From Verrucomicrobiota bacterium (GTDB lineage Bacteria > Verrucomicrobiota > Kiritimatiellia > RFP12 > UBA1067): DNA of 64,000 bases. The notes under the pieces are model-generated. The model saw only the letters and a program-made list of their open reading frames with translations. It was not told where the DNA came from and made no database searches. Location: positions 255,018-319,017 of the forward strand of contig JAHFSX010000003.1 in the NCBI GenBank assembly GCA_023269675.1, written 5' to 3'. Below, in pieces: positions 46,386 to 64,000 of the stretch (position 1 is its first letter; every line of letters starts with the position of its first letter). Both the position numbers and the translations under genes were made by a program.

Positions 46386-46419
46386 AATCCCCTCTTCGCA
46401 GACAAACGAAAAGAAACGC

Positions 46420-47767: not shown

Positions 47768-47779
47768 AGCGTCTCACAC

Positions 47780-48541: not shown

Positions 48542-48590
48542 TTGCGCCTATCCTTTTTTAACGGCTACCTCTGGCACTCGCTAGGGGGTA

Positions 48591-50228: not shown

Positions 50229-50274
50229 AAAGCCGGTACAACATACGGACACTCAGGCATGTTGTACCGGCTTT
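50229..50274. promoter_or_regulatory. perfect 16-bp inverted repeat AAAGCCGGTACAACAT-(14 nt)-ATGTTGTACCGGCTTT
   Basis: Read directly; in the LamG / HAD divergent intergenic region. Confidence 0.45.
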
Positions 50275-50379
50275 ATCCGTCTCCGGTCCTGGCGCGACCG
50301 GGTTCAACCCTGTGGGAGGGGCCCGAATAGCAGGTACACCCGGCTTTGCGGCCGGCCGGTTATTTGATATCTTACATTC

Positions 50380-50988: not shown

Positions 50989-51075
50989 CCCCGGAGCTTT
51001 CACCGCCAAGACACCACGCGCGCCAAGGTCACCAAGTTGCATCTCGTCTAAATTTCAATAACTGAGGGAAAGATC

Positions 51076-51543
51076 ATGGACTGGACTCAAGCCTTCAATC
51101 ACGTGCTGCCTTTGCTCGGACACCGCAACTGGATCCTCGTCGTGGACCAAGCGTATCCTTACCAAAGCGCGCCGGGCATCACGACCATCGACACCCAAGA
51201 GCCCTTGCCGGCCGTGCTCGAGAAAGTCGTGGCCGCCGTCAAGGCCTCCACGCACGTGAAGCCGATTTTCTATACGGACAAAGAACTCGGCTACATTTCC
51301 GAAGACATGGCGCCCGGCGTGGCGGCATTCCGCACGGAACTCGCCCGCATTCTGGCAGGGGCGCAGACGCAGACGCTGCTGCACGACTCGGTCTTCGCGA
51401 AGCTGGACGAGGCCGCCAAGCTCTTCAACGTGGTGATCCTCAAGACCCAGGGAACGATCGCCTACTCTTCGGTTTTCATCGAGCTGGATTGCGCCTACTG
51501 GAGCGCCGCCAAGGAGCAGGCCCTGCGCGACAAGATGCGCTAG
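51076..51543 (+). CDS. RbsD/FucU-family sugar mutarotase (D-ribose pyranase / L-fucose mutarotase)
   Basis: ILVVDQAYPYQSAPGITTID and NVVILKTQGTIAYSSVFIELD align with FucU/RbsD conserved blocks. Confidence 0.6.
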   Translation: MDWTQAFNHVLPLLGHRNWILVVDQAYPYQSAPGITTIDTQEPLPAVLEKVVAAVKASTHVKPIFYTDKELGYISEDMAPGVAAFRTELARILAGAQTQTLLHDSVFAKLDEAAKLFNVVILKTQGTIAYSSVFIELDCAYWSAAKEQALRDKMR

Positions 51544-51616
51544 CACGCCCAAGGATGGGCGTGCCACATTCCCGGACTGTGCCATGCGCATCCTTGCGCA
51601 TGGGCGGCGTGTGACC

Positions 51617-52936
51617 CTACCGCACCAGGCCGGAGAGCCAGCCGACCATCGCGTGCGGAAAAAGGGTGAGCAGAAGGTAAACCGCGATGTACGCGGGCAG
51701 GAAGCGCATGGCGCCGCGGAACACCTGCGCGGAGTTGGCGTCGGGGCTCATGCCCGCCACCACGAAGCACGAGACCCCGACCGGCGGCGTGATCGCGCCC
51801 AGCGTCGTCACCAGGCATATGACCTGCCCGAACCAGACCAGATCGTAGCCCATCCGCGCCACCAGCGGCTCGAAGAGCGGCAGCGAGATCAGCAGGAACG
51901 CCAGCGCGTCCATGATGCACCCGCCGATGAGGTAGCAGCCCATCATGAAGAGGAGGATCATGGCCGGGGCCAGGTCCATCCGCGTCACCCACTCGGTCAG
52001 CATGAACGGCAGGCGCGTCAGCACCAGGAAGCGGCCGAACACCGTCGCGCCCGCCAGGATCAGGAAGACCATGGAGGTGATGCGCAGCGTCGCGGTCAGC
52101 GCCTTCACGAACGCCGGCCGCGGCAGCTTGCCGCGCACCACGCAGCCGACGATCCCGAGCAGCGCGCCGAGGCCCGCCGCCTCGGTCGGCGTCACGATGC
52201 CCGAGAACATCGAGGTCATGATGATCGCGAACAGCACCGCCACGTCGAGCACCTGCGGCAGCATCGCGAGCCGGCGCTTGCGCGAGCCGCGCACGCCGGG
52301 CTGCGCCCAGTCGGGGTGCCGCCAGATGATGACCTTGACGGTCAGCACGAAGAGAAGCGTTAGCGTCAGGCCCGGAATGATGCTGCCCGCGAAGAGCTTG
52401 CCGATGCTCTGCCCCGTATAGAGGCCGTAGACCACCAGCACGATGCTCGGCGGGATCATCGCGCCCAGCGTGGAACCCGCCGCGATGCTGCCGCACTTGA
52501 GTTCGGGGTGATACTTGTTGCGCGACATGGGCTTGAGCGCCACGGAGCTCATGGTCGCGGCCGTGGCGGTGTTCGACCCGCAGATCGACGAGAAGCCCGC
52601 GCACGCCAGAATCGTGGTCACCGCCAGCCCGCCGCGCTTATGGCCGAACCACGCCTGTGCCGCGCGGAAGAGCCGGTCGCTGTAGCCCGCGTGAAAAATC
52701 ACTTCGCCCAGCAGCACGAAGAGCGGGATCACGGTGAAGCCGTAATTCGAGAAGACGGTCCACACCTCCGAACCGACAGAGCCGTTCAGCAGCGCCGAGA
52801 AACTCTGCGGCGGATGCAGCGCCAGCAGCCCGCCGAAGCCGGTCAGCAGCATCGCCAGCCCGGGGGACATGCCCGTGAAGAGAATCAGCACCAGCATCAC
52901 GCCGATGCCCAGAAAACCGATGGTTGTGGGATCCAT
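51617..52936 (-). CDS. dctM: TRAP transporter large permease subunit
   Basis: 439 aa, about 12 TM helices, DctM-family sequence character. Confidence 0.8.
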   Translation of the reverse strand: MDPTTIGFLGIGVMLVLILFTGMSPGLAMLLTGFGGLLALHPPQSFSALLNGSVGSEVWTVFSNYGFTVIPLFVLLGEVIFHAGYSDRLFRAAQAWFGHKRGGLAVTTILACAGFSSICGSNTATAATMSSVALKPMSRNKYHPELKCGSIAAGSTLGAMIPPSIVLVVYGLYTGQSIGKLFAGSIIPGLTLTLLFVLTVKVIIWRHPDWAQPGVRGSRKRRLAMLPQVLDVAVLFAIIMTSMFSGIVTPTEAAGLGALLGIVGCVVRGKLPRPAFVKALTATLRITSMVFLILAGATVFGRFLVLTRLPFMLTEWVTRMDLAPAMILLFMMGCYLIGGCIMDALAFLLISLPLFEPLVARMGYDLVWFGQVICLVTTLGAITPPVGVSCFVVAGMSPDANSAQVFRGAMRFLPAYIAVYLLLTLFPHAMVGWLSGLVR

Positions 52937-53044
52937 AAGAGAAACATCTGTTACAGGTTGATGGTTGCCGGTTGATGGTTACAGGTTGTCCCGGTTCTCA
53001 TAACGAGTAACCAGTAACGGGTAACGAGTAACCTGCAACCGTTC

Positions 53045-53617
53045 TTAACTCTCGCCATTCCCGACGGCATCCGGTTCCAGATCGCCGCGGATGCTGTTGA
53101 CCATGTGGGCGCGCTGCTGCGCGTAGGCGCTTTTATCTGTATGGCCCAGCACCAGCAGCACGAAATCGGTCAGGAACGAGGCGGCCAGCAGGAAGAGCCC
53201 GAACACCGCGCCGTACATGAGCCACGGATAGGGGAGCTTAAGCGTCTCCGAAACCTCGCCCGCGCGCAGCAGGACGCCGGCGCGGTTCGCGAGCTGGCAG
53301 CCGAGCAGCAGCACCAGCACCGCGCCCGCGAAGACGTTGAACGCGCCGACCCAGCGCCGCGCGCCCGCCGAATAGGAGCGGGTGAAGAGGTCCAGCTCGA
53401 CGTGCCCGCGCTTGCGCTGCGTGTCGGCCAGGGCCAGCGAGGCGATGAGCGCGCCGAAAAGCCCGGAGAGCTCGTAGCTCGCGCTGACCGGATGGCCCGC
53501 CAGGCGGAACGCGACGTTGCAGCCGGAGAGCAACACCAGCGTGACGAGCAAGGTGCCGGACACCGCCATCCCCGCGAAGCACAGGCCCTTTTCGATTTTG
53601 ATGAGTTTGATGAGCAT
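53045..53617 (-). CDS. dctQ: TRAP transporter small permease subunit
   Basis: 190 aa, 4 TM helices; between dctP and dctM. Confidence 0.75.
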   Translation of the reverse strand: MLIKLIKIEKGLCFAGMAVSGTLLVTLVLLSGCNVAFRLAGHPVSASYELSGLFGALIASLALADTQRKRGHVELDLFTRSYSAGARRWVGAFNVFAGAVLVLLLGCQLANRAGVLLRAGEVSETLKLPYPWLMYGAVFGLFLLAASFLTDFVLLVLGHTDKSAYAQQRAHMVNSIRGDLEPDAVGNGES

Positions 53618-53654
53618 AGTGAACGCAGAATCTTTGAATCAAGCCTTGTGGTAG

Positions 53655-53699
53655 GGACGGTTCCCCGAACCGTCCGCGGACGCCTCGGGGAGGCGTTCC
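53655..53699 (-). promoter_or_regulatory. two tandem GC hairpins (GGACGGTTC-ccc-GAACCGTCC; GGACGCCTC-gggg-GAGGCGTtCC) between dctP and dctQ; REP family 1
   Basis: Classic position of the inter-cistronic attenuator hairpin of TRAP operons; sequence homologous to 30001-30055. Confidence 0.6.
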
Positions 53700-53721
53700 T
53701 ACCTGATGAGGATCGGTGCCG

Positions 53722-54738
53722 CTATTTCGCGATCTTGCCGCGGATGAACGCGATGACCGCCTGGCCGTCCACGCCTTTGGCCGTCACGCGGGCGATGTAC
53801 TCCTCGATGAGCGGCTGGGCGGTTGCGCGCAGTACGGCCCGGTCCTCGGCCGAGGGCTCGTTGACCGTCAGGTGATGGTTCTCTTTCGACCAGGCGAGCG
53901 CTTCCAGCACATGCTGGTCCACATATGCGCCGGTCCACTCGGCCTGCTCGCGGTACAGCGCGTCGAACACCTGCTTCACATCGGCGGGCAGCGCGTCGTA
54001 CTTGGCCTTGTTCATGACCACCGCGAAGCTGGTGACACAAAGGTCGGTCTTGAAGACGAACGGGCAGTAGGAGGCGTAGTTCATGTCCTTCAGCACCTCG
54101 CCCGAGGAGACGTTGCCCTTGACCACGCCCTTCTGCAGCGCGTCAGGCACGTCCGACTGGGGCATGGCCACGGGCGAGGCGCCGAGTCGCTTCATCACCT
54201 CCGCGCCTGTGCCGGAGGAGCGCAGCGGCAGGTTCTTGAGGTCGGCCAGCGTCTTGACCTCTTTCGTGCTCATCACCAGGGCGGGCGGGCAGGTGAAGAC
54301 GGTCAGCACCTTGACCTGCGCGAACTCGGCGGGCTTGAAGGTCTCGATCAGCTCCGCGAGGATGCGGCTGGAGGTCTTGGCGTCCGCGAAGAAGTGCGGC
54401 AGGTCCAGGGCTTCGGCGACGGGGAAGCGGCCCGGCTGGTAGCTCATCGCGAAGTTGCCGATGTCGGCCGTGCCCGCGATCACGCCGTCGAAGATGTCTT
54501 TGGCCCCGAGCAGCGTGCCGCCCGGATAGGTGTTGACCTTGACCTTGCCGGCCGTGCGTTTTTCGACCTCGGTTTTCCAGTGCTCCATCTGGATGCAGGG
54601 AAAGGTCGAGGCGGGCGGGAAGTTGGCGTAGTTCAGCGTGATCGTCCCGGCGCCGGCCTTGGCCGTCGGATCCTTGGGGCCGCATCCGGACAACACGGCG
54701 ACGACGCTTGCGAGCAATACGGGCATCAACATTTTCAT
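53722..54738 (-). CDS. dctP: TRAP transporter substrate-binding protein (DctP family), probable lipoprotein
   Basis: Signal peptide with lipobox MKMLMPVLLASVVAVLSGC; DctP-type SBP body; track ORF extends to 54807. Confidence 0.75.
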   Translation of the reverse strand: MKMLMPVLLASVVAVLSGCGPKDPTAKAGAGTITLNYANFPPASTFPCIQMEHWKTEVEKRTAGKVKVNTYPGGTLLGAKDIFDGVIAGTADIGNFAMSYQPGRFPVAEALDLPHFFADAKTSSRILAELIETFKPAEFAQVKVLTVFTCPPALVMSTKEVKTLADLKNLPLRSSGTGAEVMKRLGASPVAMPQSDVPDALQKGVVKGNVSSGEVLKDMNYASYCPFVFKTDLCVTSFAVVMNKAKYDALPADVKQVFDALYREQAEWTGAYVDQHVLEALAWSKENHHLTVNEPSAEDRAVLRATAQPLIEEYIARVTAKGVDGQAVIAFIRGKIAK

Positions 54739-54820
54739 CGAGACAGGTCCCTTCATCCGTTTCTTTTGATAGTAACGGATGATAGCGGGTCTGCCCGTTT
54801 GCCGCAACCGAATTTTGCGG

Positions 54821-55437
54821 TTAGCGCAGCGCCTTTTTGAGGTAGGGCATATATTGGCGGGTATAGACGATGATCGACCAGACGTTGATGATGATGAGCA
54901 GGGCTTCGATCACGAAGATCAGCGCCTGCGGCAGGAAAAAAAGGTGCAGCGAGGCATAGACATAGATCACGCAGGCCGCGGGAAAGCTGGCCGCCGTGCG
55001 GAACTTGCCCATCCAGTTGGCGCGGCAGTCGGCGTCGTACAGCGAGCCCACCGAGCGCAGGAAGGTCACCCACTGGTCGCGCAGGATGTAGAGCACCGTG
55101 AAGACCAGCATCACCAAGGCATGGACCGACTCGTCCGGCTGCCGTCCGAGCAGCCAGAGCAGCGTCGGAAAAACCACCAGGTAAAAGACCTTGTCCATCA
55201 GCGGGTCGGCCATGGCGCCGAATTTGCTGACCACGTTCCATTTGCGCGCCAGCTGGCCGTCGAAGAGATCGGTCAGCGCCGCGACCGCCAGCGACACCGT
55301 GGCCGCCACCGCCAGCCACCACGCCTCGGGAGAGTGGGTGTAGGCGTGAATAATCGCCAAAATCATAAAGAGTACGACGAACGGCACACGTCCGAACGTG
55401 AGGGCGTTGACGAATAACCGTTTCGCTTTATCATCCA
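54821..55437 (-). CDS. pgsA: CDP-diacylglycerol--glycerol-3-phosphate 3-phosphatidyltransferase (CDP-alcohol phosphatidyltransferase family)
   Basis: DLFDGQLAR...GAMADPLMD (D-G-x2-A-R ... G-x3-D-x3-D) motif; about 205 aa multi-TM. The track's 981-aa ORF is a read-through artefact upstream of MDDKAKRLF; start coordinate +/- 2 nt. Confidence 0.7.
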
Positions 55438-55567
55438 TGGACCTTATGAAACCAAAAACGGTTCGGTTTGGAAATACAAAAGTCGTTTTCGTGCCAGGCG
55501 CTTTTTGGCTTTGTGCCGGTTCGGCGTTGTGCTTCAATGGATGAACCAAAATTGCTGGGGGTTTTTT

Positions 55568-58500
55568 ATGTTTCACCTGTTCCGTTGCATGGCCGTCCTG
55601 TCGGCGCTCTTGTGTGCGTCCGCGGTCCGCGCGTTCGATGGGCCGAGCGATATGCAAGGGAACGTCAGCTTGAGCATCGAAGGCGTGTCGGAAAAAGCCG
55701 GCACCGACAAACCGCTCGCTTTCACGCTGCGCCTTAAGAACGGCAGTAGCCAGACGGTGCAAGGCACCGTCGATGCCTGGATGAATGAAGACTGGCAGGT
55801 GGCCGGGCCCCACGCCTTCGAGGTTTGCGTCGGCCCCGGAAAAACCTGGCAGGCCGCCTGCTCCGCCACCGCGCGCGACCGCGTGCTGTCGGCACTCTAT
55901 CCCGTCCACGCGCGCTTGGCCTTCGCGCGCGATGCGGCGCGTGTCGGCCCGCACCCGATCGCGATCTTCTCCGCCGTCCGTCCCGATTCGCCGGCCGCGG
56001 CCCTTCCCTGCCAGGATGCGCCCCTGAAGCCGGGCGTCTGGCGGTTGGCCGGGCTCACGCCGTGCGCGACGGCCTGGGCGCGCGGCGGGCGCACGTTTCC
56101 GCTGCCCCCCGGCTTCAACGGCTCGGACCCCGAGAGCGGCGCCACCCTGTTCCGCGAGGACGTCGCGCGCGGCGGCGTCCCGCGCCGCAGCATCGGCATC
56201 CACCCGCCGTGGAAAGGCGGCCACGGCACGCTCTGGACGGAGTTCCGTCTGACGCTGCCCGCCGCGGCGCCGATTCTTCTCCGGTTCCATACCGCGGTCC
56301 GCGACGTGCGCCCGGACGAGCGCGCCAGCGACGGCGTGGAGTTCAAGGTGCTCGTGCAAGCCGCGGACCGCGCCGCAAAGGAGCTGTTCACCCGTTTCAG
56401 CGCCGCCACGACGTGGCAGCCCGGTGAAGCGGACCTCTCCGCCTACGCGGGCCAGACCGTGACCCTGCGCCTCTGGAACGGCCCCGGTCCCAAGAACGAC
56501 ACCACCTGCGACAATGGCTTCTGGGGCGACCCGGAACTGAGGATCGGCGTGGTGAAGCCGCCGGTGAGCGAGACCGTCTGGGCCGCCCGCACAGAGGCGG
56601 CCTTGGGGCTGGCCCGCGACGCCGCGATCCGCCAGCCCGACACGCCGGACGCCTTCCGGCTGACGGGCAACCGGGAAACCTATGGCGCGGCCGTTGTGTC
56701 CGGCGAGGAGGGGCTGACCGACGGCGTCATCGCCTTCTCCGACGGACTGCGCGACGTGGCCTTCCGCGGTTTCGCGGTGGAGGTCGACGGCCAGCCGGTC
56801 GGCGGCGCTGGCGACGGACAGCCCGTGCTGAGCGTCGGGACGGCGACCGAGGGCGGCGCGCGGGTGGTCACGCACCAAGTGGGAAGGGCGGACAACGGGC
56901 AAAAGATAGGGTTGCGTGCGAAAATACGCGTCGACCGCGGCGTTCTGTGCATCGCATGGGACATGCCGGAGGTGACGCGTGACGCGCGCGGCACGCCGCG
57001 CTTCACCCGGCTGGCCCTCGGGCCCGCGACCCGCCAGCCGGCTCGCATCTATCTGGGGTTCGGCGCGGTATTTGAAGGGCCCGGCGCGTTCACGCTGCCT
57101 TTCGGCGGCGTCCAGCTCGGCACGCGCCACGTCGGCGCGGACTATGCGGACGGCCTCAGCCTGGTGCAGGCGACCGACCTGCTCCCCGACCGGGTGGTCT
57201 GCGCGCCGGAACGCGGGCTCTTCTCGCTGGAGACGCCCCATGACGCCGGCTTCATGTTCGCCCCCTCCGCGCACGGCGCTTACGCGGCGGCGCGCGCTTA
57301 CCGCGCGGTGTGCGGCTTCAGGCGCTCGCCCGGCGTGGACGGACTGCTGGGCCGCGTCTGCCTTGACCAGTGGGGCGGGGACTACCGCGCCGCGGCGAAA
57401 GACCTCGACCGCGCCGCGAAGTACGGCGTCAATCACGCGGTCTTCGTCAAACACGACTGGCAGCGGTGGGGCTATGACTACCGCCTGCCTGAGATCTATC
57501 CGCCGGCGGGCGGGCTCGAACCGTTCCGCGAGATGCGGGCGGCGGCACAGCGGGCGGGCATGCTTTTCGCCCCGCACGACAACTACATCGACTTCTATCC
57601 CGATGCCGAGGGCTTCAGCTACGACACGGTCGCGTTTAACGCCGACGGCACGCCCCATAAGGCTTGGTATCATCCGGGCCGCGACGCGCAGAGCTACCGC
57701 TGGCGGCCCGACGCCTTCACGCCGTGGCTCACCGCCAACATGCGGCAGATGCGTGCCGGGTTTCATCCCGACAGCCTCTTCATCGACGTCTTCGCCTCAG
57801 TTGCCCCCTTCGATTACTACGACCGCGGCGGTCAGTTCCACACCCGCGCGGAGACCGTCAAGGGTTGGCGTGCCGCGTTCGATACCAGCCGTCGCCTGCT
57901 CGGTCATGACGCGGCCATGCTCAGCGAGTCCGGCCACGATGCGCTGATCGGCTCGGTCGACGGCGTGCAGGCCGACCACTGGCGGCCCGAGCTCTGGCTG
58001 AGGGACTATAAGGACGCCGACCGCACGCCGTGGCACGACATGGTGACCCATGGCAAGATGGTGCTCTTCGCGGGCGGGCTGGGCAACCGCTATGATGCGG
58101 ACCCGAAACACGGCTACGGCAGCGACGACTATCTTTCCAATACCGTGCTGGGCGGGCGCGGCCCGATGTGCGACGGCCCCTTCTCGCGCCGCGCGGTGAT
58201 GACCTACTGGCTGCTCCACGATGTCTGTGACGCGCTGGCGCATGCCGAGATGGAGACGCATGCGTTCGGCGCGACGGTGCGCCAGCAGCACACGACCTTC
58301 GGCAAGGGCGGGCAGGTGTGGGCCAACCGCGGCTCCAATCTGTGGTCCGTGGCGGACAGGGAGTTGCCCGCCTATGGATTCTACGTCAAGACCCGTGACG
58401 CCGAGGCGGGCGTGGGTCTGCTCAGCGGCCACCGCGCGGGCTTCGCGAAAACAGAGGGCGCGTTCTTCGCGGACGCGCGGCCGCGGCCTGACCCGGAGAC

Positions 58501-59215
58501 CGACTGCCGCGTCGAGACGCGCGTCGTTTCCGCCGCGCGTCTTGGGCCGCGCGCCTTCCGCTTGACCGTCGAGTGGAACGTGCTCGCGCCGCTGGGGCCG
58601 GGCTATGTGCCGTTCGTCCATATCGGGAGGCCTTCCCAAGATGCGAACGAGTGCATCGAGGCGCAGGCCGGGATGGATTTCGACCTTGCGCGGCTGGCCC
58701 GGCCCGGCACGTTCCGGGCGACAGCGGATGTGCGCCTCCCGCCGGAGTTCGCCCCCGGCGATTATCACGTGCGTTACGGCCTGTTCCGCCAAAAGGGCGG
58801 CGACCGCGCGCCGCTGCGCGGGCGCGAAGAGCAGCGCCGGCGCATCTGTGCGGGGCTCCTGCGGATCACAGCGACCGGCGACGAGTATCTCACCGAAGAG
58901 CCGCTCGCGGACAATCCGGACCTCAACGTGGCGGGCGCGATGCTCGACTTCGGCCCGCTGGTCACCGATGGCGCGTTCCGTCTGCAGCACGACAGCCGCA
59001 AGGCGTGGCAGCTCGTCCCCCTGCCCGCGAGCCGTCCGTTCCGCGCCGAGATCCGGCTCGCGTCGTTCTGCAAGGGGAGAGCGAAGGTCAAGGCCGTCGA
59101 GAAGCTTGACCCGCTCAACGCCGCCGCGAAAGAGCCGGAGTGGACGCAGGACGGCGAGGTGTTGCGCCTCGGGTGCGACGGCCAGTCCTTCGGCTACCGC
59201 ATCGTTTTTGAATAG
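55568..59215 (+). CDS. large secreted multidomain protein (1216 aa): Ig-like N-domain, NPCBM-like carbohydrate-binding domain, unassigned putative glycoside-hydrolase-like region; paralog A
   Basis: Signal peptide MFHLFRCMAVLSALLCASAVRA; NPCBM-like block SDGVEFKVLV...YAGQTVTLRLWNGPGPKNDTTCDNGFWGDP; conserved acidic/His motifs (DSLFIDVF, PHDNYIDFYPD, WHDMVTHGKM); about 55% identical to the next gene. Confidence 0.6.
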   Translation: MFHLFRCMAVLSALLCASAVRAFDGPSDMQGNVSLSIEGVSEKAGTDKPLAFTLRLKNGSSQTVQGTVDAWMNEDWQVAGPHAFEVCVGPGKTWQAACSATARDRVLSALYPVHARLAFARDAARVGPHPIAIFSAVRPDSPAAALPCQDAPLKPGVWRLAGLTPCATAWARGGRTFPLPPGFNGSDPESGATLFREDVARGGVPRRSIGIHPPWKGGHGTLWTEFRLTLPAAAPILLRFHTAVRDVRPDERASDGVEFKVLVQAADRAAKELFTRFSAATTWQPGEADLSAYAGQTVTLRLWNGPGPKNDTTCDNGFWGDPELRIGVVKPPVSETVWAARTEAALGLARDAAIRQPDTPDAFRLTGNRETYGAAVVSGEEGLTDGVIAFSDGLRDVAFRGFAVEVDGQPVGGAGDGQPVLSVGTATEGGARVVTHQVGRADNGQKIGLRAKIRVDRGVLCIAWDMPEVTRDARGTPRFTRLALGPATRQPARIYLGFGAVFEGPGAFTLPFGGVQLGTRHVGADYADGLSLVQATDLLPDRVVCAPERGLFSLETPHDAGFMFAPSAHGAYAAARAYRAVCGFRRSPGVDGLLGRVCLDQWGGDYRAAAKDLDRAAKYGVNHAVFVKHDWQRWGYDYRLPEIYPPAGGLEPFREMRAAAQRAGMLFAPHDNYIDFYPDAEGFSYDTVAFNADGTPHKAWYHPGRDAQSYRWRPDAFTPWLTANMRQMRAGFHPDSLFIDVFASVAPFDYYDRGGQFHTRAETVKGWRAAFDTSRRLLGHDAAMLSESGHDALIGSVDGVQADHWRPELWLRDYKDADRTPWHDMVTHGKMVLFAGGLGNRYDADPKHGYGSDDYLSNTVLGGRGPMCDGPFSRRAVMTYWLLHDVCDALAHAEMETHAFGATVRQQHTTFGKGGQVWANRGSNLWSVADRELPAYGFYVKTRDAEAGVGLLSGHRAGFAKTEGAFFADARPRPDPETDCRVETRVVSAARLGPRAFRLTVEWNVLAPLGPGYVPFVHIGRPSQDANECIEAQAGMDFDLARLARPGTFRATADVRLPPEFAPGDYHVRYGLFRQKGGDRAPLRGREEQRRRICAGLLRITATGDEYLTEEPLADNPDLNVAGAMLDFGPLVTDGAFRLQHDSRKAWQLVPLPASRPFRAEIRLASFCKGRAKVKAVEKLDPLNAAAKEPEWTQDGEVLRLGCDGQSFGYRIVFE

Positions 59216-59324
59216 GCAGGCTCAACCATTAACGTGTAACCACCAACGTCTTCTCTCTTTCTCCTTGGTGTCTTCGTGCCTTTGTGTTTCAATGAAAACC
59301 CATTGTAATTAAAGGGGAGTCTCT

Positions 59325-62300
59325 ATGCAGCAATGTCTCAGGAAGGTCGTGATGTTCGCCGCGCTGTCATGCGCCGGCGTCGGTTTCGGATTCAATCCGC
59401 CGACGGATAAGCAGGAGGGTGTTACGCTGAGCATCGAGAGCTTCCCGGAAGAGGCCGGGATGGACCGCTCGGCCGTCCGGAAAGTCGCGGCCGACCAACC
59501 GCTCGCCTTTACGGTGACGCTCAAGAATGAGAGCGCGAAGCCCGTCGCGGGCACGGTCAGCCTGTGGCTCAACGACGACTGGCAGATGGTCAGCACCAAC
59601 GCGGTCGCTCTCGCGGCCGAGCCCGGCAAGAGCGTCACGGTCACCTGCTCCGCCCGGGCGCGTGACTCGGTGCTGAGCGCGCTCTATCCTGTGCACGCCA
59701 AGCTCGCGCTCGTGGTGGACGGCAAGCCGCTTGAACTCCGCCCCGTGGCGATCTTCGAGGCTGTGAAGCCCGCGGCCGCGAAAGCCGCTGCCGCGGTGAC
59801 GGAGACCGTGCTCGCCGACGGCGTGGTGCGCCTCGATAGCGGCGCCGTCCGACAGGTGTTCGTCCTACAGAAGGAGAAGGTCACGGAACTGGGCGTGAAT
59901 TTCTCCGGCGCGGACGCGGCGAGCGGCACGCACATGAGCCGCGACACGAACACGCGCGGCGGTCTGTCGCGCGCGGGGTTCACGATCCATCCGGCTTACC
60001 GCGGCGGGCCGGGCGTCACTTGGAACGAATTTAAGCTGGCATTGCCCGCCGGGAAGCCCGCCGCGCTGAAGTTCTTTACCGCGCTGCGCGACAGCAGCGC
60101 CACCGAGCCCGCGAGCGACGGCACCGAGTTCAAAGTCATTGTCATCGGGGCGGACAAGGCGGAGAAGGAAGTGTTCACGCGCTTCAGCGACAGCAAGGCG
60201 TGGGAGCCCGCCGCCGTGGACCTCGGCGCGTACGCGGGGCAGCACATCACCTTGCGCCTGTGGACCGGACCGGGACCCAAGAACAACACGACCTGTGACC
60301 AGTGCTTCTGGGGCGACCCCGTGATCACCGTCGGCACGCTGCCCGCGCTCCCGACCGAGGCGCAGTGGCTGGCGCGCGAGCAGGACGCGGTCGCCCGCGC
60401 CAAGCTGGCGATGACGAAAAAGCCCAAACGCGGCACCGGCGTCTTCCGCTTGGACGTCGGCGGCCAGCGCTTCGGCGCGGCGGTGGTGCTGGGCGCGCAG
60501 GGGCTCACCGACGGCGTGATCGCCTTCACCGACGGCGCGCGCGTGCTGACCTACCGCGGCTTCGCCTGCGACATCGACAAGGCTGCGGTCGGCGGCGTCG
60601 AGAACGGCCAGCCCGTGCTCAGCGTCGCGACCGCGGCCGAGGGCGGCGCGTGGATTGTGACGCATCTCGTGTCGCGGCCGGAGGGCACCGTGCCGGTGCG
60701 GGCGAGCATCCGCGCCGACGGCGGCGCGCTGCGCATCGCGTGGGACATGCCGGGCGTCACGCGCGACGCGCGCGGCACCCCCCGCTACACGCGGCTGGGG
60801 ATCGGCGCCGGGAGCGAGCCGGTCTGGCGCGCCTACGCGGGCTTCGGCAACGTCATCGAGAAGCCGGGCGCGTTCGACCTGCACGGCGGGGGATTCATCC
60901 TCAGCACGCGGCACATCGGCGCGGACTATACCAACGGGCTCAGCCTGGTGCAGGCCTGCGACATCTTTCCCGACCGCCTGACGCACGCGCCCGCGACGCA
61001 GCGCTTTGCGCTTGAAACTTCGCACGACGCGGGCTTCCTGTTCATTCCCTCCGCCCAGGGCGCGTTCGCGGCCGCGCGGGCGTACCGCGACCTGAGCGGC
61101 TTCAAGAAAGGCCCCGGCGTGGCCGCGCTGCAGGGCCGCATGTGCCTCGACCAGTGGTCGGGCGACTATCTCGCCGCGGCGGCCGACCTGAAAGAGGCGG
61201 CCAAGTACGGCGTGACCGACGCGATCTTCGTGAAGCACGTCTGGCAGCGCTGGGGTTACGACTACCGACTGCCGGACATCTACCCGCCGGCGGGCGGGCT
61301 CGAGCCGTTCCTCGCCATGCGCGCGGCGGCGGAGCAGGCGGGCATGCTTTTCTGCCCGCACGACAACTACATCGACTTCTATCCCGACGCCGAGGGGTAC
61401 AGCTACGACCGGATCGTCTTCACCGAGGACGGGCGTCCCATGAAGGCCTGGTTCAACAAGGGCCGCGCCGCGCTGAGCTACCGCTGGCTGCCGCACGGGT
61501 TCCGTCCCTCGCTCGAGAGCAACATGCGGCAGATGCACGACGGCTTCGGGCCCGACAGCCTCTTCATCGACGTCTTCACCGCGATCTCGCCCTTCGATTA
61601 CTATGACCGCGCCGGGACCTACTATCCCCGTATGCGGACGGCCCAGGAGTGGCGCGGCGCATTCGACACCTGCCGCAAGATGCTCAAGAAGGGCGCGCCC
61701 ATGCTCAGCGAGGCCGGCACCGACGCCCTGATCGGCTCGCTCGACGGCGGCGAGGCGGACCACTTTCCGGCTGCGCGCTGGCTGAAGGAGTTCGGCGACG
61801 CCGAACGCACGCCGTGGCACGACATGGCCACGCACGGCAAGATGGTGCTGCTCGCGGGCGGTTTGGGGCCGCGCTACAGCGCCTTCGACTGGGATGACAA
61901 TGCGGGCAAGCCGCTGCACGGCTATGCCAGCGACGACTATCTCTCCAACACCGTGATGGGCGGACGCAACCCCATGTGCGACGGCCCCTTCTCGCGCCGC
62001 GCGGTGATGACCTACTGGCTGCTGCACGACGCGTGCGCCGTACTGGCCCGCGAGGAGTTCGAGACGCACAGGTTCGGCGCGAGCGTGAAGCAGCAGCACA
62101 CGACCTTCAGCGGCGGCGGCCAGGTCTGGGTGAACCGCGGCTCCAACGCGGTCTGGACGGTGGCGGGCAACAGGCTGCTGCCGGAGTACGGGTTTTATGT
62201 CGCGACGCCCGCGGCGCAGGCCGGCGTGGTGCTGATCGCAGGGCAGCGCGCGGGCTTCGCGAAGTCCGAGGAGAGCTACTTCGCGGACGCGCGGCCTGTG

Positions 62301-63056
62301 CACAACCCGCTGAGCAAATTGCGGGTCGAGTCCTCCACCGCGGACGGGAAGTATCTCGGCGGCGGCGCGTTCGAGGTCACCTTTAACTGGAACGTGCTGG
62401 ACCCCGCCTTCGACGGGTATGTGCCTTTTATCCACGTCTGCGCCGACAAGGGCACCAAGGACAAAGGTGAACACATCGCGTTTCAGACGGACATGCGGGT
62501 CGACCGCACGCTGTTCAAGCGGCCGGGCCGCTTCACCGCGACCGCGCGCATTACGGTGCCGCCGCATCTGCCCGCCGGCGAGTACAAGATCCGGTACGGG
62601 CTTTACAACTCGGCCAAGGGCGACCGGATGTCGATCCGCGGGCTGACCGACGGCGGCCAGCGCATTCTGGGCGGCGTCATGAAGGTCGACAAGAGCGGCG
62701 ACGCCTTCACCGGGGGCTCCTTCGCGCGGGAGACGTCACCCACCGACGAGAAGGCGCTGGGCTTGAACGTCGAGAACAAGATGCTCGATTTCGGCCCGCT
62801 CGTCACGGACGGCGCGTTCCGCCTGCTCCACGCCGACCGCAAGGCGTGGCAGCTGGTCCCGCTGCCCGGCAGCAACGCGTTCCGCGCGGAGATCAAGCTG
62901 GCGGAGTTCGGCGCCAAGCGCGCGAAGATCAAGGCGGTCGAGAGGGTCGACCCGCTCAACGCCGCTGCGAAAGATGCGGAGTGGACGCAGGACGGGACCA
63001 CGCTGCGCCTCGCCTGCGACGGACAGTCCTTCGCCTACCGGCTGCTGTTCGATTAA
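59325..63056 (+). CDS. large secreted multidomain protein (1243 aa), paralog B of the preceding gene
   Basis: AAAGGGGAG SD; signal peptide; same domain order and motifs (DGTEFKVIVIG...YAGQHITLRLWTGPGPKNNTTCDQCFWGDP; DSLFIDVF; WHDMATHGKM). Confidence 0.6.
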   Translation: MQQCLRKVVMFAALSCAGVGFGFNPPTDKQEGVTLSIESFPEEAGMDRSAVRKVAADQPLAFTVTLKNESAKPVAGTVSLWLNDDWQMVSTNAVALAAEPGKSVTVTCSARARDSVLSALYPVHAKLALVVDGKPLELRPVAIFEAVKPAAAKAAAAVTETVLADGVVRLDSGAVRQVFVLQKEKVTELGVNFSGADAASGTHMSRDTNTRGGLSRAGFTIHPAYRGGPGVTWNEFKLALPAGKPAALKFFTALRDSSATEPASDGTEFKVIVIGADKAEKEVFTRFSDSKAWEPAAVDLGAYAGQHITLRLWTGPGPKNNTTCDQCFWGDPVITVGTLPALPTEAQWLAREQDAVARAKLAMTKKPKRGTGVFRLDVGGQRFGAAVVLGAQGLTDGVIAFTDGARVLTYRGFACDIDKAAVGGVENGQPVLSVATAAEGGAWIVTHLVSRPEGTVPVRASIRADGGALRIAWDMPGVTRDARGTPRYTRLGIGAGSEPVWRAYAGFGNVIEKPGAFDLHGGGFILSTRHIGADYTNGLSLVQACDIFPDRLTHAPATQRFALETSHDAGFLFIPSAQGAFAAARAYRDLSGFKKGPGVAALQGRMCLDQWSGDYLAAAADLKEAAKYGVTDAIFVKHVWQRWGYDYRLPDIYPPAGGLEPFLAMRAAAEQAGMLFCPHDNYIDFYPDAEGYSYDRIVFTEDGRPMKAWFNKGRAALSYRWLPHGFRPSLESNMRQMHDGFGPDSLFIDVFTAISPFDYYDRAGTYYPRMRTAQEWRGAFDTCRKMLKKGAPMLSEAGTDALIGSLDGGEADHFPAARWLKEFGDAERTPWHDMATHGKMVLLAGGLGPRYSAFDWDDNAGKPLHGYASDDYLSNTVMGGRNPMCDGPFSRRAVMTYWLLHDACAVLAREEFETHRFGASVKQQHTTFSGGGQVWVNRGSNAVWTVAGNRLLPEYGFYVATPAAQAGVVLIAGQRAGFAKSEESYFADARPVHNPLSKLRVESSTADGKYLGGGAFEVTFNWNVLDPAFDGYVPFIHVCADKGTKDKGEHIAFQTDMRVDRTLFKRPGRFTATARITVPPHLPAGEYKIRYGLYNSAKGDRMSIRGLTDGGQRILGGVMKVDKSGDAFTGGSFARETSPTDEKALGLNVENKMLDFGPLVTDGAFRLLHADRKAWQLVPLPGSNAFRAEIKLAEFGAKRAKIKAVERVDPLNAAAKDAEWTQDGTTLRLACDGQSFAYRLLFD

Positions 63057-63074
63057 ATCGAGAGCGCCTCATGC

Positions 63075-63118
63075 TTACCGATCAGGGCCATACGCCGGGC
63101 AGTTTGCTCGCATATGGC
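63075..63118 (+). terminator. rho-independent terminator (GGGCCATA-20 nt loop-TATGGCCC then TTTTCTGTT)
   Basis: 8-bp perfect stem 19 nt after the stop of paralog B, followed by a T-rich run. Confidence 0.6.
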
Positions 63119-63226
63119 CCTTTTCTGTTCCCGCCTATCCCTTAATTCAGTTGCACGGATATGCGTACGGTGCTATCGTTTCCCGATAGTAAAGTTTGTA
63201 TTCCTTGCATGGATAGGAGATGAAGT

Positions 63227-64000
63227 ATGAGGCTGTCGACCGTCGTTACCGTGGTGCGCATACCTTTATTAGCGGCCTTTTTGACCGTTCTGTCAACCGC
63301 CGCGTTTGGCGATTCGCCGGTTCTCCGCTGGAATGGCCCCGCCGCAGGTACGAACCTCTGGGACGCCGCTGCTGTCACCTGGCTCGACGCGGGCGACGCC
63401 GCCGTGGCGTGGCAGCCCGGCGCCGAGGCGCGCTTCGAAGGCGCGGGCGGCATCGTGAACGTGGCCGCCGACGTCGCCGTTTCGAACATCACCTTCACCG
63501 GCAACGGCTACGCGCTGCTCGGCGCTGGCCGTCTCGCCGTCGAAGGCGCGGTCTCCGCCGCCGCAGGCACCACCAACAGCATCGCAGCCGAAATCATCAC
63601 GAGCGTCGGCATCAGCAAGACCGGCGCGGGCGCGCTGGCCGTCAGCCGCTGCACCGGGCCGCTGACCGCAGCGGAAGGCACGCTGCTGGTCTCGGGCTCG
63701 TTGTTTACGGATGCCGATCTCGCAGTGGCCAGCGGCGCGTCGGTGGTCACCTTCGGCGACCCCGCTGCCGCGTCCAACCTGATCCTCAACCCGGGTTTCG
63801 AACTGCCCGCGATGACGAGCGGCTCGTTCAACTACGTCGGCGGCGGAAACGTCATCTCCAACTGGACGGCCATCGCCCTGGCCAACAACGTCGGCCGCCA
63901 GAACACGGCCACCGCCAGCCAGTGGAACTCGGCGGGGGCCTCGCCGGACGGCACGCACATGCTGATCCTGCAGTACAGCGGCACGCTCGCCCAGACGGTC
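63227..64000 (+). CDS. 5' part of another secreted PATR-type (autotransporter-associated beta-strand repeat) protein, continues past window end
   Basis: AGGAGA SD; MRLSTVVTVVRIPLLAAFLTVLSTAAFG signal peptide; LRWNGPAAGTNLWDAAAVTW...FTGNGYALLGAGRLAVEG PATR-like units; no stop before 64000; not in the ORF track for that reason. Confidence 0.6.
   Translation, partial: MRLSTVVTVVRIPLLAAFLTVLSTAAFGDSPVLRWNGPAAGTNLWDAAAVTWLDAGDAAVAWQPGAEARFEGAGGIVNVAADVAVSNITFTGNGYALLGAGRLAVEGAVSAAAGTTNSIAAEIITSVGISKTGAGALAVSRCTGPLTAAEGTLLVSGSLFTDADLAVASGASVVTFGDPAAASNLILNPGFELPAMTSGSFNYVGGGNVISNWTAIALANNVGRQNTATASQWNSAGASPDGTHMLILQYSGTLAQTV

What the first reader, a model, noticed from the sequence alone, without database searches (positions are those of the whole stretch)
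55520..63056. Tandem paralogous ~1,240-aa secreted NPCBM-domain proteins with an unassigned catalytic-like region
Two adjacent genes (about 55% identical) each encode signal peptide + Ig-like domain + NPCBM-like carbohydrate-binding domain (DG.EFKV.V...YAGQ..TLRLW.GPGPKN.TTCD..FWGDP) + about 800 aa rich in conserved acidic and aromatic motifs (KH.WQRWGYDYRLP.IYPPAGGLEPF, PHDNYIDFYPDAEG.SYD, DSLFIDVF, PFDYYDR, WHDM.THGKMVL.AGGLG, DDYLSNTV.GGR.PMCDGPFSRRAVMTYWLLHD). I could not place this region in any glycoside hydrolase family from memory. They follow a glycan-utilisation cluster and precede another PATR surface protein. This is a good candidate for an undescribed CAZyme family or surface glycan-processing system.
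Basis: partly seen in the sequence, partly recalled or inferred. Interest (0 to 1): 0.65.

Follow-up and report, generated by a model that had tools for sequence, protein, structure and literature searches.

The report
Tandem secreted GH129-like glycosidases, uncharacterised family
Two neighbouring genes encode large secreted enzymes whose core is a sugar-cleaving barrel distantly related to known alpha-N-acetylgalactosaminidases (families GH129 and GH101); they belong to a widespread bacterial family that nobody has characterised, so the fold and likely chemistry are familiar but the sugar they cut is unknown.

Summary
The two genes are real: A is 55568-59215 and B is 59325-63056, and they are 55% identical over their full length. 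They look like a two-gene operon. The "unassigned" central region can be placed. An AlphaFold2 model (pLDDT 91.8) shows a beta-sandwich, a (beta/alpha)8 barrel and a second beta-sandwich. Its best PDB matches are the two characterised GH129 enzymes (E about 1e-25, TM 0.64-0.71, about 14% identity), followed by GH101. The family profile finds GH129 NagBb by sequence (E 2.3e-7; hhalign 97%). NagBb's nucleophile, acid/base and stacking Trp align with residues conserved in about 250 relatives (B D749, E796, W709). The proteins are therefore most likely retaining alpha-glycosidases. They pass no Pfam threshold: DUF6259 and DUF5696 score below cut-off, and GH129/GH101 models do not hit. No relative has been characterised or has a solved structure. 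The family occurs at 578 sites in species-representative genomes of Kiritimatiellia, Lentisphaeria, Verrucomicrobiota, Planctomycetota and Armatimonadota, with no conserved neighbours. The "NPCBM" label for the N-terminal module is not supported; it is an Ig-like domain plus a generic jelly-roll. Verdict: a divergent, uncharacterised branch of a known glycosidase superfamily, of moderate interest, with unknown substrate.

The parts
55407..55434 (+). Sigma-70-like promoter match (TTGACG-16 nt-TATCAT, 10 of 12) upstream of gene A
   Evidence: It is the only such match in 55300-63400 (0.5 expected by chance). This is a consensus match only; function was not shown.
55568..59215 (+). Gene A, the A-type paralogue: 1215 aa from ATG 55568. 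The ORF is open from TTG 55505, giving 1236 aa; residue numbers below use the TTG numbering.
   Evidence: (P0065 is this protein with the ATG start). A GGGGG Shine-Dalgarno-like run lies 7-11 nt before the ATG.
55568..55633 (+). Signal peptide of A (MFHLFRCMAVLSALLCASAVRA, then FDGPS)
   Evidence: Read from the sequence. The family consensus has AxA followed by F at this point. No signal-peptide predictor was available.
57785..57787 (+). A Asp761 (LFIDVF motif), the predicted catalytic nucleophile
   Evidence: Paralogous to B D749. The column is Asp in 251 of 251 relatives.
57926..57928 (+). A Glu808 (LSESG motif), the predicted general acid/base
   Evidence: A pairwise alignment places it opposite NagBb E478. 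The column is Glu in 250 of 252 relatives.
59216..59324 (+). A-B spacer of 109 nt with no terminator; a GGGGAG Shine-Dalgarno-like run precedes the B start codon
   Evidence: No terminator-like site. The RNA fold is no better than shuffled sequence, z = -0.48. Sequence.
59325..63056 (+). Gene B, the B-type paralogue, 1243 aa
   Evidence: P0001 is an exact match, on a 338-kb contig.
59325..59390 (+). Signal peptide of B (MQQCLRKVVMFAALSCAGVGFG, then FNPPTD)
   Evidence: Read from the sequence; aligned with the family's AxA-then-F site.
59403..59765 (+). B residues ~27-147: Ig-like beta-sandwich
   Evidence: AF2 model m133e40902329, pLDDT 93. Weak pAdhesive_8, Big_3_5 and NPCBM_assoc hints.
59820..60332 (+).
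   Evidence: Model. Foldseek's best matches are Ig+CBM tandems (GH115 C-terminal region, sialidase Ig+CBM32, CBM22), with CBM51 only at rank 41. Pfam NPCBM is negative. hhalign against a genuine NPCBM domain gives 3.8%.
60441..61052 (+). B residues ~373-576: N-terminal beta-sandwich of the GH129-like catalytic module
   Evidence: AF2 model md5eb5fc1e1e6. Aligned with the GH129 N-terminal domain in the full-length Foldseek matches. Same architecture as ZgGH129.
61119..62051 (+). B residues ~599-909: (beta/alpha)8-type barrel, the catalytic domain
   Evidence: About 25 polar or aromatic residues at the C-terminal ends of the barrel strands are at least 89% conserved, most at least 95%.
61359..61364 (+). 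B His679-Asp680 (PHDNYIDFYPD motif), aligned with NagBb H366-D367 at the end of barrel strand 3
   Evidence: 252 of 252 and 246 of 252 conserved.
61449..61451 (+). B Trp709 (KAW motif), aligned with NagBb Trp398, the sugar-stacking platform
   Evidence: Alignment. The role of W398 is from PMC8106489. Trp in 246 of 251 relatives, the rest Tyr or Phe.
61569..61571 (+). B Asp749 (LFIDVF motif), the predicted catalytic nucleophile, at the C-terminal end of barrel strand 4
   Evidence: Aligned with NagBb D435. D435 is equivalent to ZgGH129 D486 and is a NagBb catalytic residue (PMC5698469). Asp in 251 of 251 relatives.
61710..61712 (+). B Glu796 (LSEAG motif), the predicted general acid/base, just after barrel strand 5
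   Evidence: Three pairwise local alignments place it opposite the position I infer to be NagBb E478, with an Asp at +4 in both. Glu in 250 of 252 relatives. Strand position.
62058..62291 (+). B residues ~912-989: C-terminal beta-sandwich of the GH129-like module
   Evidence: Weak profile hits to the same domain of ZgGH129.
62292..63053 (+). B residues ~990-1243: conserved C-terminal region of unknown fold
   Evidence: No Pfam or PDB sequence match. The paralogue gives only a weak NPCBM_assoc hint. Not modelled.
63084..63130 (+). Intrinsic-terminator-like hairpin (GGGCCAUA...UAUGGCCC) followed by UUUUCUGUU, 28 nt after the B stop codon
   Evidence: region z = -5.0, and 0 of 200 shuffles fold as well. 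Sequence.

Best explanation
A and B are co-transcribed, Sec-exported, multi-domain glycoside hydrolases.

Each has this domain order: signal peptide; Ig-like domain; jelly-roll (CBM-like) domain; a three-domain GH129/GH101-type catalytic module (beta-sandwich, (beta/alpha)8 barrel, beta-sandwich); and a ~250-aa C-terminal region of unknown fold.

Inferred mechanism: Koshland double-displacement, which retains the anomeric configuration, as in GH129 and GH101. The Asp at the end of barrel strand 4 (B D749, A D761) attacks the anomeric carbon. The Glu after strand 5 (B E796, A E808) acts as general acid/base. The sugar in the -1 subsite stacks on Trp709 and is held by His679/Asp680 and the WQRWGYDYR loop.

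By analogy with every characterised relative (alpha-GalNAc, alpha-3,6-anhydro-D-Gal and endo-alpha-GalNAc enzymes), the bond cleaved is most likely an alpha-linkage of a D-galacto-configured residue. The actual substrate is unknown.

The two paralogues have 70% identical barrels and all active-site residues intact, and they differ mainly in the accessory domains. They therefore probably perform the same chemistry on differently presented substrates.

Shown here: the genes, the paralogy, the fold, remote homology to GH129, and conservation of the residues. Inferred: catalytic activity, retaining mechanism, alpha-specificity, export and co-transcription.
For: - Fold. The AF2 model has pLDDT 91.8 and pTM 0.92. 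Foldseek's top hits are GH129 NagBb (E 9.8e-26, TM 0.64/0.71, 644 aligned columns) and ZgGH129 (2e-24), then GH101 (about 1e-17), then GH31, GH97 and GH36.
- Sequence. The family profile finds NagBb at E 2.3e-7. hhalign against a NagBb-type profile gives 97.3% probability, E 2.3e-11.
- Residues. NagBb D435, W398 and H366/D367 align with D749, W709 and H679/D680. The position I infer to be NagBb E478 aligns with E796 in three independent pairwise alignments. These columns are conserved 251/251, 246/251, 252/252 and 250/252 across the family, and they sit at the C-terminal ends of barrel strands.
- Carbohydrate context. Relatives are fused to a complete GH78 rhamnosidase, to a GH123 catalytic domain and to CBM9.
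- Export. Signal peptides are present, with a conserved AxA-then-F site.
- Operon. There is a promoter-like site upstream of A, no terminator in the spacer, and a strong terminator-like hairpin after B. The A-then-B tandem recurs in L007, L009 and L010.
- Paralogue divergence. The barrels are 70% identical, with only 18 lineage-specific positions in the core.
Against: - No biochemical data exist for any family member, and no papers mention the nearest Pfam families.
- Identity to GH129 structures is only 13-14%, and the significant sequence match covers only barrel strands 2-4, about 120 residues.
- In ZgGH129 the NagBb acid/base is not conserved (PMC5698469), so catalytic machinery does vary within this superfamily.
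- Homologues mostly sit among housekeeping genes with no conserved partner. This gives no support from context for a particular substrate, or even for a catabolic role.
Confidence: 0.7

Rival explanations
1. They are ordinary members of CAZy family GH129: exo-alpha-N-acetylgalactosaminidases like NagBb that release GalNAc from Tn-antigen-type or mucin-type glycans. They simply carry extra binding domains.
For: - Both NagBb catalytic residues and the GalNAc-stacking Trp have conserved counterparts.
- GH129 enzymes are the best structural matches.
- Distant relatives pass the Pfam DUF5696 threshold, as NagBb-type fragments do, which gives sequence continuity.
- One relative is fused to a GH123-type (beta-GalNAc-ase family) domain.
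- Many members come from rumen and gut MAGs.
Against: - The Pfam GH129 model (PF11308) and the GH101 model do not hit A or B at all, whereas NagBb-type fragments hit both.
- Identity is 13-14%.
- NagBb is cytosolic and about 640 aa long (PMC7232152), whereas these proteins are secreted and about 1240 aa long.
- The family is also common in groundwater, lake and wastewater bacteria, where mucin is not an obvious substrate.
- GH129 already contains a non-GalNAc activity, 3,6-anhydro-D-galactosidase, so fold and dyad do not fix the specificity.
Confidence: 0.15
2. The enzymes use the same glycosidase chemistry but act on the cell's own glycans. They would trim or remodel an envelope or exopolysaccharide component shared by PVC-group bacteria, and would not harvest external polysaccharide.
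For: - Homologues are mostly single genes among housekeeping genes, not in polysaccharide-utilisation clusters.
- Cross-phylum conservation of the core is unusually high, at 50-56%.
- In this window and in L010 the pair sits next to a CDP-alcohol phosphatidyltransferase gene, and in L001 the homologue sits next to an LPG_synthase_TM gene.
- The window is rich in outer-membrane biogenesis and PATR surface-protein genes.
Against: - Fusions to catabolic exo-glycosidase modules (GH78, GH123) and to CBM9 point to nutrient glycans.
- In L084 the GH78 fusion is in an apparent operon with a BNR/sialidase-like protein and a LamG protein.
- The lipid-gene adjacency is seen only in a few loci and on the opposite strand.
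- PVC bacteria commonly scatter their catabolic CAZyme genes (general knowledge).
Confidence: 0.2
3. They are non-catalytic glycan-binding or adhesin-like surface proteins that have kept a glycosidase fold.
For: The proteins are large and multi-domain, with Ig-like and CBM-like modules and weak 'putative adhesive domain' hits. They lie in a genome region rich in PATR surface proteins.
Against: The candidate nucleophile and acid/base are retained in 251/251 and 250/252 relatives, as are about 20 other polar or aromatic residues on the catalytic face. That pattern is expected for active enzymes, not for pseudo-enzymes. Both paralogues keep all of these residues.
Confidence: 0.05

Closest known systems
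GH129 alpha-N-acetylgalactosaminidase NagBb, Bifidobacterium bifidum (PDB 5WZN, 5WZP, 5WZR)
   Same: Best structural match across all three domains of the catalytic module (E 9.8e-26, TM 0.64/0.71). It is the only PDB protein found by sequence profile (E 2.3e-7; hhalign 97.3%). The nucleophile Asp, the acid/base Glu with an Asp at +4, the stacking Trp and the His-Asp pair at strand 3 all have conserved counterparts.
   Different: Identity is 13-14%, and the significant sequence match covers only about 120 residues. The Pfam GH129 and GH101 models hit NagBb-type sequences but not A or B. NagBb is cytosolic, about 640 aa long and has no extra modules. A and B are secreted, about 1240 aa long, and carry N-terminal Ig and jelly-roll domains and a 250-aa C-terminal extension. 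Their substrate is unknown.
ZgGH129 / DagB, alpha-1,3-(3,6-anhydro)-D-galactosidase of Zobellia galactanivorans (PDB 5OPQ, 8RZG-8RZK)
   Same: Same architecture of beta-sandwich, TIM barrel and Ig-like domain. Second-best structural match (E 2e-24, TM 0.61). The nucleophile Asp (Zg D486) is equivalent. Weak profile hits to its C-terminal domain. In Zobellia it works alongside GH127 and GH2 enzymes under an AraC-family regulator; this window also encodes GH127, GH2 and AraC genes 9-15 kb upstream.
   Different: No significant sequence similarity in the barrel. ZgGH129 lacks the NagBb-type acid/base (PMC5698469), which A and B keep. Its source is marine and carrageenan-specific, whereas this family is mostly in non-marine anaerobes. 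The GH127/GH2 proximity is conserved only in close relatives.
GH101 endo-alpha-N-acetylgalactosaminidases (EngBF 2ZXQ; SpGH101 3ECQ, 5A55-5A59)
   Same: Same superfamily. Foldseek E about 1e-17 to 1e-18. A retaining Asp/Glu pair lies on adjacent barrel strands (D764/E796 in SpGH101, per the PDB entry titles). These are large, secreted, multi-domain enzymes.
   Different: Lower structural similarity (TM 0.45-0.50). The Pfam GH101 model does not hit A or B. The accessory domains differ.
Pfam DUF6259 (PF19773) and DUF5696 (PF18952), both uncharacterised
   Same: These are the only Pfam models that hit the barrel of A and B, over the same strand 2-4 region. Distant relatives of this family pass the DUF5696 threshold (31-33 bits against 25.6). 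NagBb-type fragments hit both models as well.
   Different: A and B score below both gathering thresholds (DUF6259 17.5-24.5 against 28.7; DUF5696 11-20 against 25.6). Neither DUF has a known function or any mention in the searchable literature.

Membership tests
CAZy GH129 | Three-domain catalytic module: N-terminal beta-sandwich, (beta/alpha)8 barrel, C-terminal beta-sandwich | tested here: met
   AF2 model. Full-length Foldseek alignments to NagBb and ZgGH129 (644-750 columns, TM 0.61-0.71). Architecture of ZgGH129 from PMC5698469.
CAZy GH129 | Significant sequence similarity to family members across the catalytic domain (how CAZy families are defined) | tested here: inconclusive
   The profile finds NagBb at E 2.3e-7 and hhalign gives 97.3%, but only over about 120 residues covering strands 2-4. 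Identity is 13-14%. There is no significant match to the ZgGH129 barrel. However, the accepted GH129 members NagBb and ZgGH129 are themselves only 16% identical.
CAZy GH129 | Match to the Pfam Glyco_hydro_129 model (PF11308, GHL1-3) | tested here: not met
   No hit at E<=1 on the full proteins or at E<=10 on the isolated barrels. A NagBb-type fragment scores 33.4 bits against a cut-off of 25.6.
CAZy GH129 | Catalytic nucleophile Asp (NagBb D435, ZgGH129 D486) | tested here: met
   Aligned with B D749 and A D761. Asp in 251 of 251 relatives.
CAZy GH129 | NagBb-type general acid/base Glu (E478) | tested here: met
   Three pairwise local alignments place NagBb 'SSEEVSD' opposite 'LSEAGTD' (B E796) or 'LSESGHD' (A E808). 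Glu in 250 of 252 relatives. The residue lies just after barrel strand 5. Caveats: these are low-similarity alignments, no 3D superposition was possible, and the E478 position was obtained by counting on from D435.
CAZy GH129 | Demonstrated alpha-GalNAc-ase or alpha-3,6-anhydro-D-galactosidase activity, and listing by CAZy or dbCAN | not testable with these tools
CAZy GH101 | Match to the Pfam Glyco_hydro_101 catalytic model (PF12905) and close structural similarity | tested here: not met
   No PF12905 hit on A or B. The Foldseek similarity is real but weaker than to GH129 (E about 1e-17, TM 0.45-0.50).
Pfam DUF6259 / DUF5696 | Score at or above the Pfam gathering threshold | tested here: not met
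   For A and B, DUF6259 scores 17.5-24.5 bits against 28.7, and DUF5696 scores 11.3-20 bits against 25.6. Some relatives 35-37% identical to B do pass DUF5696 (P0260, P0263, P0246).
NPCBM / CBM51 (N-terminal module) | Match to Pfam NPCBM (PF08305) | tested here: not met
   No hit at E<=1 on the full proteins or at E<=10 on the isolated N-terminal regions. As a positive control, the neighbouring gene 48591-50045 scores 29.9 bits against a cut-off of 23.9.
NPCBM / CBM51 (N-terminal module) | CBM51-type jelly-roll fold with its C-terminal 'D..W.D' strand motif | tested here: inconclusive
   The second N-terminal domain is a jelly-roll. CBM51 tandem 2YGL is found only at rank 41 (E about 1e-4, TM 0.30), behind GH115, CBM32 and CBM22 matches. 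hhalign against the neighbour's NPCBM aligns the motif (37 columns, 27% identity) at 3.8% probability.

The most novel reading that the evidence does not exclude
The family is a new glycoside hydrolase family, a sister to GH129 and GH101, with a substrate specificity not yet described for that superfamily. It would be conserved across Kiritimatiellia, Lentisphaeria, Verrucomicrobiota, Planctomycetota and Armatimonadota because it targets one abundant, still unassigned alpha-linked glycan, either environmental or part of the cell envelope. The A/B tandem would then be two accessory-domain variants of that enzyme.
Probability: 0.35. Interest if true: 0.6.

Novelty: new variant of a known kind. 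Interest (0 to 1): 0.42.

Why it matters
Relatives are encoded at 578 sites in species-representative genomes, and the family forms about 190-430 distinct 50%-identity clusters in metagenomes. It is found in rumen, gut, groundwater, lake and wastewater PVC-group bacteria, which are major but poorly understood polysaccharide degraders.

Every copy seen is annotated 'hypothetical protein' (one Lentisphaeria cluster is labelled 'sugar-binding protein'), and standard family models miss it. Placing it next to GH129 and GH101, with a defined candidate catalytic pair (D749 and E796), turns an unannotated 1240-aa protein into a directly testable enzyme.

It also gives CAZyme annotation pipelines a target they currently overlook. 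If the specificity turns out to be new, it would add a family or subfamily to the alpha-galactosidase-type superfamily and could yield a new tool enzyme for alpha-linked GalNAc- or Gal-type glycans.

If it is simply an alpha-GalNAc-ase, the result is routine.

Tried and rejected
- NPCBM assignment: rejected as unsupported. Pfam is negative while a positive control in the same window passes, hhalign gives 3.8%, and CBM51 is only rank 41 structurally.
- Conserved operon or 'system': rejected. None of 12 window neighbours recurs beside homologues in 82 loci, with a maximum of 5 loci. De novo clustering of neighbours gives at most 9 of 82 loci. Three metagenomic contexts are housekeeping genes. 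Synteny holds only in close relatives L010 and L030.
- GFO/IDH/MocA neighbour as a GH109-like alpha-GalNAc-ase partner: rejected. It is a generic sugar oxidoreductase, with GH109 2IXA only around rank 56 at E 1.5e-6. The neighbours lie 1-6 kb away, mostly on the opposite strand.
- Carrageenan-type role, by analogy with the Zobellia GH127 + GH129 + GH2 + AraC cluster: considered but not adopted. The GH127/GH2/AraC genes are 9-15 kb away, the NagBb-type acid/base is retained here unlike in ZgGH129, and the habitats are mostly non-marine.
- Obtaining full-length NagBb-type sequences: the search returned only fragments of up to 196 aa. These sufficed for hhalign and for locating E478, but not for a full-domain profile comparison.
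- Literature searches for DUF6259, DUF5696, PF18952 and PF19773 found nothing. Searches for a new GH129/GH101-related family or for Kiritimatiellota GH129 found nothing relevant. The OsAPSE paper turned out to concern GH27.
- The original NagBb structure paper (doi 10.1074/jbc.M117.777391) is not held.
- tblastn against the plasmid collection found no homologue.
- NCBIfam: no hits.

Full report
OBSERVATION

The window is high-GC (about 62-71% here).
- It contains two long same-strand ORFs: A at 55505-59215 (1236 aa from a TTG) and B at 59325-63056 (1243 aa).
- The public gene call for A (P0065, 1215 aa) starts at ATG 55568. That start places a signal peptide, MFHLFRCMAVLSALLCASAVRA, at the N-terminus.
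- A sigma-70-like promoter match lies upstream of A at 55407-55434.
- The 109-nt spacer has no terminator, and its RNA fold is no better than shuffled sequence (z = -0.48).
- A strong hairpin followed by a U-run lies 28 nt after the B stop codon, at 63084-63130 (z = -5.0). The pair therefore looks like a two-gene operon. This is an inference.
- The genes immediately upstream are on the opposite strand: a CDP-alcohol phosphatidyltransferase, TRAP transporter genes DctP, DctQ and DctM, and then (on the + strand) an RbsD/FucU-like gene and a nucleotidase (DctQ identified from the translation, not scanned against Pfam).
- The 'glycan cluster' (GH127, GH2, an AraC regulator, a GDSL esterase and a LamG+NPCBM protein) spans 39977-50045.
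- The partial ORF downstream (63227 onward) gives no PATR hit in its visible 258 aa. The five large ORFs at 2001-20126 are genuine PATR proteins.

WHAT THE CENTRAL REGION IS

Curated sequence models do not capture these proteins.
- Pfam gives only sub-threshold hits to two domains of unknown function, DUF6259 and DUF5696, over residues ~620-800.
- NCBIfam gives nothing.

The homologue search returned 132 proteins. Almost all are labelled 'hypothetical protein' and come from Kiritimatiellia, Lentisphaeria, Armatimonadota and Verrucomicrobiota.

I built a 53-sequence alignment (A1) and modelled B residues 340-1010.
- The model is confident (pLDDT 91.8, pTM 0.92).
- It shows a beta-sandwich, an eight-stranded beta/alpha barrel with some helices missing, and a second beta-sandwich.
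- Foldseek against the PDB puts the two characterised GH129 enzymes first. NagBb, an alpha-N-acetylgalactosaminidase, has E 9.8e-26, TM 0.64/0.71 and 644 aligned columns. ZgGH129, a 3,6-anhydro-D-galactosidase, has E 2e-24.
- GH101 endo-alpha-N-acetylgalactosaminidases follow at about 1e-17, then GH31, GH97 and GH36.
- Identity to the GH129 structures is 13-14%.
- ZgGH129 has the same three-domain architecture (PMC5698469).

The relationship is also detectable from sequence alone.
- The family profile finds NagBb at E 2.3e-7.
- hhalign against a small profile of NagBb-type fragments gives 97.3% probability, E 2.3e-11.
- In both cases the match covers about 120 residues, barrel strands 2-4.

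CATALYTIC RESIDUES

In these alignments:
- NagBb D435 falls on the invariant Asp of 'LFIDVF' (B D749, A D761). D435 is a NagBb catalytic residue and the only one shared with ZgGH129 (PMC5698469).
- NagBb W398, the GalNAc stacking platform (PMC8106489), falls on the 'KAW' Trp (B W709).
- NagBb H366/D367 fall on 'PHDNY' (B H679/D680).
- Counting on from D435 in two NagBb-type fragments places E478 in 'SSSEEVSD'. Three independent pairwise local alignments put this opposite 'LSEAGTD' in B and 'LSESGHD' in A, giving B E796 and A E808, with an Asp at +4 in both families.

In the model, D749 ends barrel strand 4 and E796 follows strand 5. This is the arrangement seen in GH101-type and GH13-type retaining enzymes (established knowledge; the SpGH101 mutant entries D764N and E796Q appear).

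Across about 250 family proteins, down to about 34% identity, these columns are conserved as follows:

| Residue (B numbering) | Conservation |
|---|---|
| D749 | 251/251 |
| E796 | 250/252 |
| H679 | 252/252 |
| W709 | 246/251, the rest Tyr or Phe |
| H638 | 249/249 |
| D646 | 249/249 |

FAMILY PLACEMENT

- Genuine NagBb-type fragments hit four Pfam models on the same segment: GH101 (41-47 bits), DUF5696 (about 35), GH129/PF11308 (33) and DUF6259 (20-29).
- The isolated barrels of A and B hit only DUF6259 (20.5-24.5 against a cut-off of 28.7) and DUF5696 (11-20 against 25.6).
- Relatives 35-37% identical to B's core do pass the DUF5696 threshold (31-33 bits), and one shows a weak GH101 hit.

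The family is therefore a divergent branch of the GH101/GH129/DUF5696/DUF6259 superfamily, linked to GH129 through intermediate sequences but not captured by any curated model. Naumoff's GHL1 became GH129, and the other GHL families remain uncharacterised (PMC5765458). Whether CAZy would call this GH129 or a new family cannot be decided here. The accepted members NagBb and ZgGH129 are themselves only 16% identical, and the ZgGH129 authors argued that it deserved its own family. The searchable literature contains no mention of the nearest DUFs and no description of a related new family. The PDB copy, current to April 2026, holds no closer structure.

ACCESSORY DOMAINS

A second model, B residues 23-350 (pLDDT 93), shows an Ig-like beta-sandwich followed by a jelly-roll.
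- Its best PDB matches are Ig+CBM tandems: the GH115 C-terminal region, the Micromonospora sialidase Ig+CBM32 pair, and tandem CBM22.
- CBM51, which is the NPCBM family, appears only at rank 41. TM-scores are low throughout.
- Pfam NPCBM does not hit even the isolated module at E<=10, although it passes its threshold on the neighbouring LamG protein.
- hhalign against that genuine NPCBM domain gives 3.8% probability.
- The last ~250 residues match nothing by sequence and were not modelled.

DISTRIBUTION AND CONTEXT

- A scan of one genome per species found 578 stretches encoding relatives, in Kiritimatiellia, Lentisphaeria/Victivallales, Verrucomicrobiota, Pirellulaceae and Abditibacteriaceae. 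Sources include rumen, chicken and human gut, groundwater, lakes and wastewater. Core identity is 50-88%.
- Among 1.84 billion representatives, 192 match at E<=1e-30, 427 at E<=1e-10 and 676 at E<=1e-3.
- Across 82 loci no window neighbour recurs; the maximum is 5 loci, and synteny is seen only in close relatives L010 and L030.
- No neighbour family found de novo exceeds 9 of 82 loci.
- Three long metagenomic contigs show housekeeping neighbours.
- The A-then-B tandem recurs in L007, L009 and L010, and several MAGs carry two copies on separate contigs.
- Both lineages are conserved: 11 A-type and 62 B-type clusters. Their barrels are 70% identical, with only 18 lineage-specific core positions, mostly conservative changes. 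The paralogues differ mainly in their accessory domains.
- Informative fusions exist: a complete GH78 alpha-L-rhamnosidase (P0094), a GH123-type catalytic domain (P0095) and CBM9 (P0082-P0093). P0094 lies in an apparent operon with a BNR/sialidase-like protein and a LamG protein.
- The recurring GFO/IDH/MocA neighbour was tested as a possible GH109-like partner and rejected.

MECHANISM AND RIVALS

Best explanation (confidence about 0.7): A and B are Sec-exported, retaining alpha-glycosidases of the GH129/GH101 type, with D749 (A D761) as nucleophile and E796 (A E808) as acid/base. The N-terminal Ig and jelly-roll module, and perhaps the C-terminal region, would target or position the substrate. 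By analogy with all characterised relatives, the scissile bond is most likely an alpha-linkage of a galacto-configured sugar, but the substrate is unknown.

Rivals:
- They are simply GH129 alpha-GalNAc-ases (about 0.15).
- They process the cell's own envelope or EPS glycans rather than nutrients (about 0.2). This is compatible with the same chemistry and is suggested by the housekeeping context and the strong cross-phylum conservation.
- They are non-catalytic binders (about 0.05). The invariant catalytic face contradicts this.

VERDICT

It is a divergent, uncharacterised branch of a known glycosidase superfamily, and I rate it a new variant of a known kind. Interest is moderate (0.42). It is a good, concrete target for enzyme discovery and for fixing a gap in CAZyme annotation, but it is not surprising in fold or in likely chemistry.

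Noticed in passing
window 48591-50045 (-): A 484-aa secreted protein with a LamG (Laminin_G_3) domain and a genuine NPCBM/CBM51 domain (29.9 bits against a cut-off of 23.9). It served as a positive control for the NPCBM model. A LamG protein also sits directly upstream of the GH78-fused family member in L084.
   Followed up: partly
window 2001-20126 (-): Five consecutive large ORFs (1036-1465 aa), each with 4-9 PATR (passenger-associated-transport) repeats. This is an array of paralogous surface or autotransporter-like proteins.
   Followed up: partly
window 63227-64000 (+), runs off the end: A partial ORF after the pair with a signal-peptide-like start (MRLSTVVTVVRIPLLAAFLTVLSTAAFG). The visible 258 aa give no PATR hit, only a sub-threshold HpiC1-like (CBM-like) match.
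   Followed up: partly
window 48591-54807 compared with L010:1356-3418: In the syntenic relative L010, the GDSL, NT5C and CDP-alcohol phosphatidyltransferase genes directly precede the A/B tandem. The LamG/NPCBM, RbsD/FucU-like and TRAP DctPQM genes present in this window gave no match in L010, which suggests insertions in this genome (or loss in the relative).
   Followed up: partly
window 54821-57766 (-): A 981-aa antisense ORF overlapping gene A is a high-GC artefact. Only its last ~199 codons (54821-55420) encode a real protein, a CDP-alcohol phosphatidyltransferase.
   Followed up: yes
window 39977-47767: GH127 (985 aa, -), GH2 (1177 aa, -) and a divergent AraC-type regulator with a periplasmic-binding-protein-like sensor domain. 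The same enzyme families and regulator type occur with ZgGH129 in the Zobellia carrageenan locus. The GH127 and GH2 ORFs overlap by 83 nt as listed. GH127-GH2-GDSL also lies upstream of a family member in L030, a close relative.
   Followed up: partly
P0094 (L084:8001-13820) and P0095 (L083:1658-7354): Family members fused at the C-terminus to a complete GH78 alpha-L-rhamnosidase (P0094) and to a GH123-type catalytic domain (P0095). P0094 lies in an apparent operon with a BNR_2 (sialidase-like) protein and a 776-aa LamG protein.
   Followed up: partly
window 21753-39846: A block of outer-membrane biogenesis and envelope genes (SurA-like PPIase, DegP-type protease, LpxD, BamA/Omp85, BamB-like) plus a hybrid-cluster protein (Prismane). 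This fits a diderm anaerobe.
   Followed up: no
L005-L082 (family-wide): The catalytic core is 50-56% identical between members from different phyla (Kiritimatiellia against Pirellulaceae, Abditibacteriaceae and Verrucomicrobiia). That is unusually high for a secreted CAZyme and could reflect strong constraint or horizontal transfer. No phylogeny was made.
   Followed up: no
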